Positions 20,671-58,202 of a stretch of DNA of 64,000 nt are shown in pieces. Both the position numbers and the translations under genes were made by a program. The notes below the pieces were generated by a model, which saw only the letters and a program-made list of their open reading frames with translations, was not told the DNA's origin and did no database searches. Source of the stretch: an uncultured Planctomycetia bacterium (GTDB taxonomy: Bacteria > Omnitrophota > Gorgyraeia > JABMRG01); NCBI GenBank assembly GCA_964634945.1, contig CAZWMG010000004.1:52528-116527 (forward strand). The letters are read 5' to 3'. The stretch's first letter is position 1; the number at the start of each line of letters is the position of its first letter.

Positions 20671-20791
20671 TGCACCACTCACTTTGCTTATATGGTGCAT
20701 GCCCTGAACCCGAACTGCGAAGCAGTGAGTGGTTTAGGGCAAGTCACGATTCCCGGGTGCTGTTACGAAGGAATTACAAAAGGTCACAAAA

Positions 20792-21608: not shown

Positions 21609-21678
21609 TGCACCACTCGAAAAAACCATAAGGTTGTTTCTCGGATGCATGGCAGGCCACAATTCACAGGAGATAATT

Positions 21679-54536: not shown

Positions 54537-54549
54537 CACAGTTAATCGC

Positions 54550-54717
54550 TGCCCCGTGGTATAATTTTTTAACCATGCATCGTGATTGCAGAGCAATCTC
54601 TGATGCATGGGGCAACACGGCTGATTCTGCAGTGAACCAGAGCCCCGAAGGGGCACGGTACACTGCAGCAGTAAACCGTGTTTTGTGTAACAAAACTCTG
54701 GTTTGCTGCTGGTTCAG
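54550..54717 (+). pseudogene. Degenerate partial copy of the 5' half of tRNA-Gln. Two hairpin-rich insertions interrupt it. The first 24 nt, including a TGgTATAAT, are duplicated from the intact gene.
   Basis: TTAATCGCTGCCCCGTGGTATAAT matches 54748..54771. GGCAACACGGCTGATTCTG and CTGGTTCAG match internal tRNA segments. There is no T-arm or acceptor 3' half. Confidence 0.6.
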
Positions 54718-54755
54718 TATAATATTTATGAAAGAAAAGTTCTCTGATTAATCGC

Positions 54756-54830
54756 TGCCCCGTAGTATAATTGGCAACACGGCTGATTCTGGTTCAGCTA
54801 TTCTTGGTTCGAGTCCAAGCGGGGCAGCCA
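54756..54830 (+). tRNA. tRNA-Gln (CTG)
   Basis: Acceptor TGCCCCG/CGGGGCA, anticodon stem GCTGA/TCAGC with loop TTCTGGT, T-arm CTTGGTTCGAGTCCAAG, CCA. One A-C mismatch in the D-stem. Confidence 0.7.
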
Positions 54831-54892
54831 TCAGCCTTCGCGCTTTTAACGCGCAGGTTACTTATGCGCTACGGCTGATTGGCTAGCATATT

Positions 54893-55144
54893 ATGTATTA
54901 CACCTATATTCTTAGAAGCAAGAAAGATAATAGTAAATTCTATATTGGATATACAGCTAATTTAGAGAAGCGGTTAAAGGAGCATAACGAAAGTAGAATG
55001 TTGTATACTAAGCGTCATGCTCCTTGGTATGTAGAGACATACGTATCATTCACTAATCAGCAGCTAGCCAAGCAGTTTGAACAATATCTCAAAAGTGGTT
55101 CTGGCAAAACATTTCTCAAGCGAAGGCTGACAAGTCAGCCGTAG
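54893..55144 (+). CDS. Standalone GIY-YIG nuclease-domain protein (YhbQ/UPF0213-like), 83 aa
   Basis: YYTYIL and FYIGYT motifs, plus conserved R and E (KEHN). Confidence 0.75.
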   Translation: MYYTYILRSKKDNSKFYIGYTANLEKRLKEHNESRMLYTKRHAPWYVETYVSFTNQQLAKQFEQYLKSGSGKTFLKRRLTSQP

Positions 55145-55246
55145 CTGCCAAGTTATATTGCCTGAGAAAATGCGAAGGCTGATGGCACATGGATAAGGCC
55201 GGCGAAGCCTGGACACGATATAGCCTGTTGCAAAGGCGAAGCTGTG

Positions 55247-55262
55247 CCAAGCGGGGCAGCCA
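55247..55262 (+). repeat. 16-bp direct repeat (CCAAGCGGGGCAGCCA) identical to the 3' end of tRNA-Gln (54815..54830). Together they bracket the GIY-YIG cassette.
   Basis: Exact match seen in sequence. Confidence 0.9.
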
Positions 55263-57199: not shown

Positions 57200-57254
57200 T
57201 AAGCAAGATAGTCCTTATGTGCCACAACCGTTATTCCATATCAAAAAATACATT

Positions 57255-58001
57255 AAATAGGGACAGCGCCCATTTAAATTTTTTCTTGCTTATGGGCGAT
57301 TCCTGTAATATTATATATTCATGCCAAGAACCGCAAGAATAGTTTTCGAAGAATATCCGCACCATATCACTCAAAAAGGAAATTACGGGCAGAAGGTATT
57401 TACTAAAAATTCCGAATACAGTATTTACCTCGAATGGCTAAATGAATATGCTATCAAGTATAAATTAAGCATACTTGCATATTGCCTTATGCCCAACCAT
57501 GTTCATTTTGCTGCTATTCCAAATAAGTCCGATTCTCTATCCAAGACTTTTAATACATGTCATATGCGTTATGCGCAGTATTTTAACAAACGCAATAGAA
57601 TTTCAGGCCACTTGTGGAAAGGCAGATTTTATTCCGCTGTTTTAGATGATAATCATTTATATTACGTTGTAAGATACATAGAAAATAACCCGGTGCGAGC
57701 CAAGCTTGTAAAAAGAGCGGGGGATTGGAAGTGGTCGAGTGCGAATACCCATTTAAATGGCGCAAAAAGTATTTTGCATCTGGGCAACATAAGGAAATAT
57801 ATTGATAATATAGACTGGGCAGACTATCTGCAAAAAAGAGAAGATGACGCAATTGTCAAAACCATAAGAGATACGACACTGAGCGGGAAGCCCATGGGAA
57901 GTGATTCGTTTATAGAAAAGCTAGAAAAACTATCAGGAAAAAGTTTAAGGACATTACCGCGCGGCAGGCCTCGGCAAAAATAAATGGGCGCTGTCCCTAT
58001 T
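57255..58001 (+). mobile_element. IS200/IS605-type Y1 (REP-associated tyrosine transposase-like) unit. 21-nt imperfect-palindromic ends in inverted orientation (57255..57275 and 57981..58001) flank the transposase gene.
   Basis: AAATAGGGACAGCGCCCATTT on the left is the exact reverse complement of AAATGGGCGCTGTCCCTATTT on the right. Confidence 0.7.
57321..57983 (+). CDS. Y1 HUH transposase (IS200-like / RAYT family)
   Basis: HUH motif MPNHVHF. Catalytic Tyr region YIENNPVRAKLV. 220 aa. No tnpB partner. Confidence 0.8.
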   Translation: MPRTARIVFEEYPHHITQKGNYGQKVFTKNSEYSIYLEWLNEYAIKYKLSILAYCLMPNHVHFAAIPNKSDSLSKTFNTCHMRYAQYFNKRNRISGHLWKGRFYSAVLDDNHLYYVVRYIENNPVRAKLVKRAGDWKWSSANTHLNGAKSILHLGNIRKYIDNIDWADYLQKREDDAIVKTIRDTTLSGKPMGSDSFIEKLEKLSGKSLRTLPRGRPRQK

Positions 58002-58202
58002 TAACGGCTTTTTTGACTATAGCGGGAATCCCTCTAACATGTTCGATATCAAATGGGCTCGCCTTCGGGTTTACAGCGTATCCTATGTGCAAGATATTTT
58101 CCAGATATAAAAACAGCATTAATTTGGATTATTATTGAAATGTATTGTTTAAGCAGATAGAATATTAGATAGTATAAGTATATTCCCAAAAAAGGAGGAC
58201 GT

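What the first reader, a model, noticed from the sequence alone, without database searches (positions are those of the whole stretch)
54815..55262. A GIY-YIG nuclease gene sits in a 416-bp cassette bounded by 16-bp direct repeats of the tRNA-Gln 3' end
CCAAGCGGGGCAGCCA at 54815..54830 is the T-arm/acceptor 3' end of tRNA-Gln. It recurs exactly at 55247..55262. The two copies flank only the 83-aa GIY-YIG ORF. This is the attL/attR signature of site-specific insertion at a tRNA 3' end, yet no integrase is present. Either a larger island was deleted and left the GIY-YIG gene behind, or the GIY-YIG gene is a minimal self-mobile cassette.

A K+ channel gene and, 2 kb further on, a RAYT transposase follow. 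The region is therefore a hotspot for acquired DNA.
Basis: seen in the sequence. Interest (0 to 1): 0.6.

Follow-up and report, generated by a model that had tools for sequence, protein, structure and literature searches.

The report
tRNA-end-targeting GIY-YIG mobile cassette
A 0.4-kb piece of selfish DNA whose only gene is a tiny nuclease sits exactly at the end of a glutamine tRNA gene, and it belongs to a large family, for which I found no published description, that does the same at many different tRNA genes across bacterial phyla.

Summary
The last 16 nt of tRNA-Gln(CTG) recur exactly 416 bp downstream, and only an 83-aa GIY-YIG ORF lies between the copies.

It is an insertion. Five relatives keep the same gltX–tRNA-Gln synteny but lack the cassette, and homology to the window stops at the tRNA's last base.

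It is one member of a large family, with more than 500 relatives in each of two collections and many phyla represented. The small nuclease gene sits directly after a same-strand tRNA or tmRNA of almost any identity. Of 21 loci built like the window, 20 repeat the local tRNA's own 3' end after the cassette.

All junctions fit one rule. Insertion falls between tRNA nt 74 and 75, nt 61–74 are duplicated (14 bp), and the element starts with CA, which restores CCA. The ends are hairpin-forming inverted repeats with a shared TTCGC…GCTWC core, and their stems extend onto target C74 and C61/C62. The protein is of the SLX1/UPF0213 type, keeps its catalytic residues and is under purifying selection (dN/dS 0.07).

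No integrase, Rfam family or publication matches. The mechanism is inferred, not shown.

The parts
54756..54830 (+). Target gene: intact tRNA-Gln(CTG), CCA encoded
   Evidence: ARAGORN. Rfam tRNA, 52.9 bits. It is 96-100% identical to the tRNA-Gln that follows gltX in relatives.
54815..54828 (+). Upstream copy of the 14-bp target duplication (tRNA nt 61-74).
   Evidence: D4. The boundary is inferred from the junction table of 23 loci.
54827..54883 (+). Left terminal hairpin. The stem GCCATCAGCC (54827-36) pairs with GGCTGA-T-TGGC (54873-83) and so covers G73-C74 and CA. Conserved cores are TTCGC (54837-41) and GCTAC (54868-72).
   Evidence: DNA fold of the + strand -12.5 kcal/mol, z -1.8; of the - strand -14.0, z -2.3. 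The same X-TTCGC...GCTWC-X' unit follows the tRNA end in the family.
54893..55144 (+). 83-aa GIY-YIG nuclease gene of the SLX1/UPF0213 type
   Evidence: Pfam E 8.5e-16. PDB 1zg2 E 1.5e-10 and SLX1 about 1e-6. Y5, Y17, G19, R27, H31 and E63 are invariant. dN/dS 0.07 against L011.
55120..55145 (+). Inverted copies of both arms of the left hairpin, inside the ORF's last codons (KRRL...stop): GCGAAGGCTGA (55120-30) and TCAGCCGTAGC (55135-45)
   Evidence: the repeat finder I3 and I11. Hairpin -8.0 kcal/mol, z -2.5. Coordinates checked.
55172..55186 (+). 3' arm of a 15-bp perfect long-range helix with 54827-54841 (GCCATCAGCCTTCGC / GCGAAGGCTGATGGC). The helix encloses the ORF.
   Evidence: (I1). The helix is present in the RNA minimum-energy fold of tRNA plus cassette, z -4.6. 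The equivalent helix occurs in 76 of 115 family loci against 7 of 115 shuffles.
55184..55248 (+). Right terminal hairpin. GGCACA (55184-89) pairs with TGTGCC (55243-48), and its last CC is C61-C62 of the displaced tRNA fragment. The core GCGAAG (55236-41) is the inverse of the left core.
   Evidence: This hairpin is weakly predicted in the window itself (z about 0) but clear in relatives.
55247..55262 (+). Displaced copy of the tRNA-Gln 3' end (nt 61-74 plus CA)

Best explanation
The 54829/31-55246 segment is a minimal mobile DNA cassette of a widespread, apparently undescribed family. Its only gene is an ~80-aa GIY-YIG nuclease of the SLX1/UPF0213 type.

Shown:
- The cassette is an insertion that close relatives lack.
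- Family members sit exactly at the 3' end of tRNA and tmRNA genes of many identities.
- Members built like the window are followed by a copy of the local tRNA's nt 61-74(76).
- The ends are hairpin-forming inverted repeats with a conserved core.
- The nuclease gene is intact and under purifying selection.

Inferred mechanism:
- The nuclease, which has no DNA-binding domain, recognises structure. That structure would be the element's terminal hairpins or cruciforms, whose stems extend 1-2 bp onto the two invariant tRNA cytosines C61(C62) and C74.
- It makes two nicks 14 nt apart in the tRNA gene, at 60|61 and 74|75.
- Host repair or ligation joins the element and fills the gaps. This duplicates nt 61-74.
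- The element's terminal CA rebuilds CCA, so the tRNA stays functional and the insertion is harmless.
- Spread between genomes may also use the conserved tRNA on the left and the displaced 14-mer on the right as portable homology arms, as in homing.
For: Insertion:
- Relatives with GluRS 92, 90, 85 and 78% identical keep DXS-POR-gltX-tRNA-Gln but have no cassette and no GIY homolog. Homology to the window ends at 54830/31.
- In L091 the last repeat is followed by the flank that directly follows the tRNA in those relatives.

Family:
- At least 576 relatives in species genomes and 546 in metagenomes.
- A same-strand tRNA or tmRNA ends within 250 nt upstream in 63 of 80 and 40 of 62 evaluable loci. 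This is an undercount.

Repeats:
- 20 of 21 loci with the window's layout carry the local tRNA's 3' end after the cassette.
- 14 of 68 loci score 12 or more downstream, against 0 of 68 in upstream controls.
- Cassettes 74-81% identical sit at Gln and at Ser, each with its own 16-mer.
- Every junction fits insertion at 74|75. In 5-6 loci the displaced copy lacks CCA while the tRNA copy has it.

Ends:
- The helix that starts at the tRNA end occurs in 76 of 115 loci against 7 of 115 shuffles, with 60 distinct arm sequences.
- The arms include CA or CCA.
- Left end against the reverse complement of the right end scores 10.3, against 5.9 for the same-strand control.

Protein.

Repeat freshness: the repeats are perfect although the window and L011 cassettes are near saturation at synonymous sites (dS about 1.5). 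The repeats are therefore renewed or maintained.
Against: - No activity or movement was observed; everything is comparative.
- GIY-YIG enzymes hydrolyse DNA and cannot themselves transfer strands, so joining must be left to host functions. A 14-bp duplication is long.
- The commoner family layout (hairpin module first, then the ORF) shows a tRNA-end repeat in only 2 loci, L103 and L118. Its relation to the window's layout is unresolved.
- The window holds one copy, and copy number per genome was not measured.
- The right hairpin is weak in the window itself.
- The complete tRNA next to the cassette differs at one D-stem base (GTAG) from the broken ancestral copy upstream and from the closest relatives (GTGG). 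The tRNA plus cassette may therefore have arrived together by recombination rather than by transposition in this genome.
Confidence: 0.75

Rival explanations
1. Free-standing homing endonuclease gene. The nuclease cuts cassette-free tRNA genes, and the break is repaired from a cassette-bearing copy. The tRNA serves as the left homology arm and the displaced 14-16-mer as the right arm. No transposition step is involved, and the hairpins are regulatory or protective.
For: - GIY-YIG is a classical homing-nuclease fold.
- T4 SegB, a GIY-YIG homing enzyme, sits among tRNA genes (PMC2330249, listed).
- Cassette lineages track tRNA type: the Gly cluster is 75-85% identical across Gly(ccc) and Gly(tcc).
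- The tRNA next to the window's cassette carries a D-stem variant foreign to the lineage, as co-conversion would give.
- The window's closest relatives lack the cassette, while a distant genome (TRAM gene 64% nt) has a 79%-identical one at the same tRNA.
Against: - The protein has no DNA-binding domain, and TIGR01453 scores 21.7 bits against a cut-off of 56.
- Homing does not explain how a new tRNA type acquires a duplication of its own 3' end (Gln versus Ser).
- It does not explain the inverted-repeat symmetry of the two ends.
- It does not explain the constant 74|75 and 60|61 boundaries.
Confidence: 0.3
2. Passive cassette moved in trans by a tyrosine or serine recombinase, as integron cassettes or small integrative elements are. 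The GIY-YIG gene would be cargo or an accessory factor, and the repeat a true att core.
For: - tRNA 3' ends are the classic integrase target.
- In L091 two further islands bounded by the same 16-mer lie at this tRNA.
- A GIY-YIG nuclease is a non-essential accessory of the tyrosine-recombinase transposon Tsy (PMC10293859).
Against: - No recombinase lies in or beside the cassette in the window or in the 170 related loci examined.
- The repeat sequence changes with the tRNA among closely related cassettes.
- The GIY-YIG gene is the single constant content of the cassette and is under strong purifying selection.
Confidence: 0.08
3. Remnant of a larger integrase-borne island whose other genes were deleted.
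For: The direct repeat of a tRNA 3' end is the usual island signature. tRNA-Gln is a hotspot in this clade.
Against: - The same minimal content (two hairpins plus one ~80-aa ORF, about 300 nt from ORF start to repeat) recurs at more than 20 different tRNAs in several phyla.
- The ORF is conserved, not decaying.
- The cassette ends are conserved inverted repeats that abut the repeats exactly.
Confidence: 0.03
4. Not mobile. The gene would be a host repair or housekeeping nuclease co-transcribed with tRNAs, the hairpins an RNA leader or processing signal, and the repeat a local duplication.
For: - Small COG2827 genes have been read as UvrC-like repair nucleases, and one in Caulobacter has an SOS box (PMC1839093).
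- In S. meliloti such a gene is leaderless, and its long leader represses expression (bioRxiv 10.64898/2026.05.12.723736).
- The tRNA+cassette transcript folds well, z -4.6.
- Most loci with the other layout have no repeat.
Against: - Relatives with otherwise conserved synteny have empty sites.
- Hosts, tRNA identities and flanking genes all vary.
- The repeats track the local tRNA.
- An RNA motif gives no reason for the reverse complement of the left core to be conserved at the right end.
Confidence: 0.05

Closest known systems
Free-standing GIY-YIG homing endonuclease genes (phage T4 Seg/Mob; SegB lies in the T4 tRNA cluster)
   Same: A lone GIY-YIG nuclease gene behaving as selfish DNA beside tRNA genes, and harmless to the host gene.
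   Different: Seg and I-TevI enzymes are 200-250 aa with a C-terminal DNA-binding domain. They leave no target duplication and have no terminal inverted repeats. This protein is a bare 83-aa catalytic domain of the SLX1/UPF0213 branch, and the element has hairpin ends and a 14-bp duplication.
SLX1 / UPF0213 (BH0048 1zg2, EF2693 1ywl, E. coli YhbQ; COG2827) structure-specific URI nucleases
   Same: These are the closest sequence relatives with solved structures. They share the bare GIY-YIG/URI domain and the catalytic residues.
   Different: SLX1 works with SLX4 in junction resolution. The bacterial proteins have no assigned role, and I found no paper linking them to tRNA genes or to mobility.
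IS200/IS605 and REP/RAYT elements
   Same: Small elements whose ends are hairpins rather than plain repeats. Flanking target bases are read by pairing with bases inside the element; here G pairs with C74 and GG with C61-C62.
   Different: Those elements use an HUH/Y1 transposase with a covalent intermediate, insert without duplication and target a 4-5-nt motif. This element has a hydrolytic GIY-YIG enzyme, a 14-bp duplication and a tRNA-gene target. The RAYT 2 kb away is unrelated.
tRNA-integrating genomic islands and prophages (tyrosine integrases)
   Same: Insertion at the tRNA 3' end, with the gene kept intact and a displaced 3' fragment left behind.
   Different: No integrase is present. 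The repeat is not a fixed att core but follows each target tRNA. The element is 0.4 kb with no cargo.
Penelope-like retroelements (GIY-YIG endonuclease plus reverse transcriptase)
   Same: A GIY-YIG nuclease makes the target nicks, and duplications of ten or more bp result (my own knowledge, not tested here).
   Different: Those are eukaryotic, RT-dependent and not tRNA-specific. No RT is present here.
MITEs / integron gene cassettes
   Same: Minimal size and structured ends. ORF-less copies of the hairpin module exist, sometimes in tandem (L020, L027, L038, L103).
   Different: MITEs depend on a canonical transposase elsewhere in the genome, and integron cassettes on IntI/attI. Neither is seen here.

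Membership tests
GIY-YIG nuclease superfamily | GIY...YIG motifs with conserved Arg, His/Tyr and metal-binding Glu; match to Pfam PF01541 | tested here: met
   PF01541 E 8.5e-16, 58.5 bits against a cut-off of 22.6. Y5, Y17, G19, R27, H31 and E63 are invariant in 21 homologs.
SLX1/UPF0213 (COG2827, URI) branch | Bare ~80-100-aa URI domain most similar to BH0048, EF2693 and the SLX1 N-terminus | tested here: met
   Profile against PDB: 1zg2 E 1.5e-10, SLX1 1e-6 to 7e-6, 1ywl 2e-5, I-TevI only 0.43.
GIY-YIG homing endonucleases (I-TevI/Seg type) | Catalytic domain tethered to a C-terminal DNA-binding domain | tested here: not met
   The protein is 83 aa, all of it catalytic domain. TIGR01453 scores 21.7 bits against a cut-off of 56.05.
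GIY-YIG homing endonucleases (I-TevI/Seg type) | Cleaves the cassette-free allele and spreads by break repair | not testable with these tools
   This needs enzyme assays or crosses. Empty alleles do exist.
tRNA-targeting integrative island | Integrase (tyrosine or serine recombinase) gene within the repeat-bounded segment | tested here: not met
   The only gene between the repeats is the GIY-YIG ORF. The same holds in L005/L012 and L004/L091.
tRNA-targeting integrative island | Repeat is an att core carried by the element (same sequence wherever the element goes) | tested here: not met
   Cassettes 74-81% identical carry CCAAGCGGGGCAGCCA, CCAGGCGGGGCAGCCA or CCCAGCCTCTCCGCCA according to the local tRNA.
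Insertion sequence / DNA transposon | Terminal inverted repeats | tested here: met
   Left end against the reverse complement of the right end shares stem-T(T/A)CGC-N4-GCT(T/A)C-stem. Mean score 10.3 against 5.9 for the same-strand control.
Insertion sequence / DNA transposon | Target-site duplication of characteristic length | tested here: met
   nt 61-74 (14 bp) fits about 19 of 23 junctions, and four extend left to nt 54-57. The duplication is absent in most loci of the other layout.
Insertion sequence / DNA transposon | Canonical transposase (DDE, HUH, serine or tyrosine) | tested here: not met
   Pfam finds only GIY-YIG.
Insertion sequence / DNA transposon | Several copies per genome | not tested
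   The window has one copy. C. crescentus is reported to have three COG2827 genes (PMC1839093).
IS200/IS605 - REP/RAYT | Y1/HUH transposase acting on the element's hairpins; no target duplication | tested here: not met
   There is no Y1 gene in the cassette. The RAYT at 57321-57983 has different 41-nt repeats. A duplication is present.
Integron gene cassette | attC site plus an IntI/attI platform | tested here: not met
   No IntI is present. The cassettes stand singly at tRNA ends.
Any Rfam RNA family (ribozyme, intron, leader) | Match to a curated covariance model | tested here: not met
   Only tRNA and tmRNA hits at E up to 1 in the window region, and at E up to 0.1 in 12 related loci (two below-threshold miRNA-family hits elsewhere in L036).

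The most novel reading that the evidence does not exclude
This would be a previously unrecognised class of site-specific transposable element whose 'transposase' is an ~80-aa hydrolytic, structure-specific GIY-YIG nuclease. The DNA element would supply the specificity itself. Its terminal hairpins pair with two invariant tRNA cytosines (C61/62 and C74), so that any tRNA or tmRNA gene is a safe landing site, and the element rebuilds CCA. An even bolder variant, not excluded, is that the tRNA's own 3' strand (nt 61-76) hybridises to its gene and marks both cut sites, which would be tRNA-guided insertion.
Probability: 0.3. Interest if true: 0.9.

Novelty: new variant of a known kind. Interest (0 to 1): 0.75.

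Why it matters
- It gives a concrete biological role (selfish, tRNA-end-specific mobility) to a very common but uncharacterised family of small bacterial 'UvrC-like/GIY-YIG' genes (COG2827/UPF0213).
- It would add a mobile-element type that needs neither an integrase nor a canonical transposase. With a bare nuclease domain and two hairpins, it is among the smallest autonomous elements conceivable.
- The insertion rule (between nt 74 and 75, duplication of nt 61-74, CA supplied by the element) is precise enough to test directly.
- The rule implies that such elements can convert CCA-less tRNA genes into CCA-encoding ones.
- It explains many orphan tRNA 3' fragments that island-finding software would misread as integrase att sites.
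- If the terminal hairpins really read the target by base pairing, the system is a compact, possibly reprogrammable, structure-guided nuclease.

Tried and rejected
- **Rfam:** scans of the window region at E up to 1 and of 12 related loci at E up to 0.1 found only tRNA and tmRNA, apart from two below-threshold miRNA-family hits elsewhere in L036. The hairpin module is not a described RNA family.
- **Phages and plasmids:** tblastn of the protein found no match.
- **Exact-junction search for the window's empty site** in JGI metagenomes gave 0 hits. This is uninformative, because the pattern also occurs at the filled site and the species is simply absent there. Empty sites were then found through GluRS homologs.
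- **First profile scan of genome contigs** failed because the alignment was too diverse. It was repeated with 10 sequences.
- **Literature:** eight searches, including sequence strings of the hairpin cores, found nothing on tRNA-linked small GIY-YIG cassettes. The GIY-YIG of the Tsy transposon is unrelated.
- **Link to the nearby RAYT/REP system:** rejected, because its inverted repeats are different and the cassette motifs do not recur in the window.
- **Fixed ruler from the T-loop to nt 76, and a mature-tRNA template:** both considered. CCA-less genes at first seemed to contradict a ruler. Re-reading all junctions showed a uniform 74|75 site with CA supplied by the element. A DNA-level ruler is therefore adequate and retro-insertion of mature tRNA is unnecessary.
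- **Purely RNA-level function of the hairpins:** considered. It is disfavoured by the inverted symmetry of the two ends but not excluded.
- **Relation between the two family layouts** (ORF inside versus after the hairpin pair): I could not resolve it.
Full report
**1. The observation.**
ARAGORN and Rfam place tRNA-Gln(CTG) at 54756-54830 on the + strand. Its last 16 nt, CCAAGCGGGGCAGCCA, are the T-stem 3' strand, the acceptor 3' strand, the discriminator G and CCA. They recur exactly at 55247-55262 and nowhere else in the window, even with two mismatches allowed. The chance expectation is 0.06 matches, and 0 of 100 shuffles gave two.

The 416 bp between the copies contain one credible ORF, 54893-55144. 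It encodes 83 aa and matches Pfam GIY-YIG at E 8.5e-16. No recombinase is present. The window has no second GIY-YIG gene, and the cassette sequences are not repeated elsewhere in it.

**2. It is an insertion: empty sites.**
The organism is a Candidatus Omnitrophota bacterium, judging from the names on the closest hits. I retrieved GluRS (gltX) homologs that are 92, 90, 85 and 78% identical, together with their contigs. All keep the upstream synteny DXS – pyruvate:ferredoxin oxidoreductase subunits – gltX – tRNA-Gln(CTG), and the tRNA is 96-100% identical to the window's. None has the cassette or any GIY-YIG homolog in the locus. Nucleotide homology to the window stops at 54830/54831, the last base of the tRNA.

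A more distant genome (L004/L091) has a cassette with a 79-81% identical protein. It is flanked by its own version of the 16-mer, CCAGGCGGGGCAGCCA. Its last repeat is followed by TTCTTATCTCTCGAA…, which is the sequence that directly follows the tRNA in the cassette-free relatives.

**3. It is one of a large family with the same habit.**
The protein's homologs lie in unrelated gene neighbourhoods, but always directly after a same-strand tRNA or tmRNA. Examples are tRNA-Ser(GCT) in L005, tRNA-Pro in L007 and tmRNA in L009.

The phyla include Omnitrophota, Planctomycetota, Alpha- and Gammaproteobacteria, Patescibacteria (CPR), Verrucomicrobiota, Acidobacteriota and Babeliales.

- Of the best 80 genomic loci, 63 have a same-strand tRNA or tmRNA ending within 250 nt upstream.
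- Of 62 evaluable metagenomic loci, 40 do.
- Most of the 'exceptions' turn out to have a tRNA or tmRNA 3' end, or a 3' fragment, that ARAGORN missed.
- The tRNA identities are Ser, Pro, Gly, Tyr, Leu, Val, Gln, Ala, Asn, Met, Trp, Ile, Glu, Asp, Arg, Cys and Thr, plus tmRNA.

**4. The direct repeat is a family trait and follows the local tRNA.**
In loci built like the window (tRNA – hairpin – ORF – hairpin), 20 of 21 carry a copy of the local tRNA's 3' end within about 100 nt after the ORF. Upstream control regions never do: 14 of 68 loci score 12 or more downstream, against 0 of 68 upstream.

Cassettes 74-81% identical in protein sit at tRNA-Gln (window, L091) and at tRNA-Ser (L005/L012). Each is flanked by its own tRNA's 16-mer. 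The repeat is therefore generated from the target and is not a fixed att core.

**5. A single insertion rule.**
I lined up both copies for 23 loci. In all but one, the base after the discriminator in the displaced copy is C, even where CCA is not encoded. Every junction fits insertion between tRNA nt 74 and 75 with duplication of nt 61-74 (14 bp). Four loci extend the duplication leftwards to nt 54-57.

In CCA-encoding hosts the element begins with CA, so C74 plus CA restores CCA. In L043, L048, L066, L069 and L118 (and L056, which cuts one base earlier) the displaced copy lacks CCA while the tRNA copy has it. There the element supplied it. In CPR hosts the element begins TC or CC and no CCA is made. 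On this reading the window's 16-bp repeat is the 14-bp duplication plus CA, which is elemental upstream and native downstream.

**6. The ends are hairpin-forming inverted repeats.**
Immediately after the tRNA end comes a stem whose sequence varies but whose complementarity is kept. It encloses the conserved TTCGC…GCT(A/T)C.

- A perfect arm of at least 6 bp starting within 3 nt of the tRNA end is found in 76 of 115 loci, against 7 of 115 shuffles. There are 60 distinct arm sequences.
- The arm usually includes the CA or CCA.
- The right end, read on the other strand, has the same plan: stem – T(T/A)CGC – N4 – GCT(T/A)C – stem. The left end against the reverse complement of the right end scores 10.3 on average, against 5.9 for the same-strand control.
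- The right stem closes with GG paired to C61-C62 of the displaced tRNA fragment.

In the window:
- The left hairpin is 54827-54883, with GCCATCAGCC pairing GGCTGA-T-TGGC.
- A perfect 15-bp long-range helix joins 54827-54841 and 55172-55186 and encloses the ORF.
- The last codons of the ORF (KRRL…stop) contain inverted copies of both arms of the left hairpin, at 55120-55145.
- The right hairpin is 55184-55189 / 55243-55248. In the window it is only weakly predicted.
- The whole tRNA+cassette strand folds far better than shuffles, z -4.6.
- No Rfam family matches the module.

Conservation of the reverse complement of one end at the other end is what protein recognition of DNA ends predicts. An RNA motif does not predict it. 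An RNA role, such as repression of read-through translation, is still not excluded. In S. meliloti a family member is leaderless and its long leader represses expression.

**7. The protein.**
It is a bare catalytic domain. The closest solved relatives are the UPF0213 proteins BH0048 (1zg2, E 1.5e-10) and EF2693, and the nuclease domain of SLX1, a structure-specific junction and flap nuclease (about 1e-6). I-TevI is barely detected. The group I intron endonuclease model scores far below its cut-off.

Y5, Y17, G19, R27, H31 and E63 are invariant. Against the L011 cassette dN/dS is 0.07, with dS about 1.5. Against L012 and L013, synonymous sites are saturated while pN is 0.15-0.18. The gene is functional and not a decaying remnant.

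The flanking 14-16-mers are perfect in each genome and match each genome's own tRNA variant (CCAAG versus CCAGG), despite that divergence. The repeats are therefore renewed by repeated mobilisation or homing, or they are maintained. This is inference.

**8. The other layout.**
In most Alphaproteobacteria, Acidobacteriota and others, the two hairpins lie side by side as a ~90-nt ORF-less module directly after the CCA, and the ORF follows it. The modules can be tandem (L020, L027, L038). Only L103 and L118 show a tRNA-end repeat after the ORF. I could not establish how this layout relates to the window's. It is the main loose end.

**9. Mechanism (inferred).**
A hydrolytic nuclease with no DNA-binding domain, related to junction-resolving SLX1, is most simply imagined to recognise the element's hairpins or cruciforms. 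Their stems reach 1-2 bp onto the invariant C74 and C61/C62. It would nick at 74|75 and 60|61. Joining and gap filling by host enzymes would then give the 14-bp duplication.

tmRNA shares exactly this T-arm/acceptor part with tRNAs, which explains its inclusion. Homing by break repair is a serious alternative or complement, with the tRNA and the displaced 14-mer as homology arms. Three observations favour it:
- Cassette lineages track tRNA type.
- The window's closest relatives lack the cassette, while a distant genome has it at the same tRNA.
- The complete tRNA next to the cassette has GTAG in the D stem. The broken ancestral copy upstream and the closest relatives have GTGG. The tRNA plus cassette may have been imported together.

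**10. Comparison with what is known.**
Eight literature searches found no description of tRNA-linked small GIY-YIG cassettes. Such genes have been treated as UvrC-like repair nucleases.

The element combines features of free-standing GIY-YIG homing genes, hairpin-ended IS200/IS605-type elements and tRNA-targeting islands, but it fails a defining test of each:
- no DNA-binding domain;
- no HUH transposase, and a duplication is present;
- no integrase, and no fixed att core.

I file it as a new variant of a known kind, a selfish nuclease-gene cassette. There is a real chance that the transposition chemistry is new.

**11.
The DNA downstream of tRNA-Gln differs in every relative: MoeA genes, LexA, ClpB, toxin-antitoxin and Fic genes, and a K+ channel in the window. 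L091 has three repeat-bounded segments there. 'Hotspot' is therefore fair. The RAYT gene is a separate element with its own 41-nt inverted repeats.

Noticed in passing
window 54542-54747: Close relatives have the intact tRNA-Gln right after gltX. At that position the window has a broken copy: nt -8 to 17, a 44-nt hairpin insert (54567-54610), nt 18-36, an 81-nt insert (54630-54710) and nt 37-43. After 30 nt more comes the complete tRNA. The broken copy carries the lineage's GTGG D-stem variant, which creates a TGGTATAAT extended -10-like box. The complete copy carries GTAG. L175 also has a degenerate 5' half-copy upstream of its tRNA-Gln.
   Followed up: partly
window 20671-20760 and 21609-21670: The trailers of tRNA-Val and tRNA-Leu both begin TGCACCACTC right after CCA and form hairpins that include the CCA (CCATGCA…TGCATGG). 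The Leu trailer ends in TGGCAGGCC, like the family's ORF-less modules, and the Val trailer contains GCGAAGC. They may be ORF-less relatives or another tRNA-end element.
   Followed up: no
window 57241-58016: The RAYT/IS200-like Y1 transposase gene (57321-57983) is bracketed by 41-nt inverted repeats (57241-57281 / 57976-58016, 88% complementary). They are unrelated to the GIY-YIG cassette ends.
   Followed up: yes
L091 1904-6206: Three copies of the tRNA-Gln 3' 16-mer (at 1904, 5812 and 6191) delimit successive segments. The first two are preceded by TAAT and bound islands with toxin-antitoxin, HEPN/nucleotidyltransferase and HATPase_c_4 genes. No integrase is visible on the contig. The GIY-YIG cassette is the innermost (oldest) segment.
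   Followed up: partly
L033 about 2240-2497: In a WOR-3 MAG, two ORF-less hairpin modules sit inside what looks like a CRISPR array (repeat GCCTACCTATAAGGGATTGAAAC). They are inserted after …GGGATTG. This is a non-tRNA landing site.
   Followed up: no
L043, L048, L056, L066, L069, L118 (junctions): The displaced tRNA fragment lacks CCA while the functional tRNA copy has it. The element's terminal CA or CCA has turned a CCA-less tRNA gene into a CCA-encoding one.
   Followed up: partly
L032, L038, L039, L044, L046, L077, L084 (ORF 3' ends): C-terminal extensions of the nuclease (…VALAKD…) are translations of the inverted copy of the left hairpin. Coding sequence and end structure overlap, as with KRRL in the window at 55118-55129.
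   Followed up: partly
L020, L027, L038, L103: There are tandem arrays of the ORF-less module, or of the left hairpin alone (four 30-nt copies in L038), directly after the tRNA. In L103 a second module follows the displaced tRNA fragment, as successive insertions at the same site would give.
   Followed up: partly
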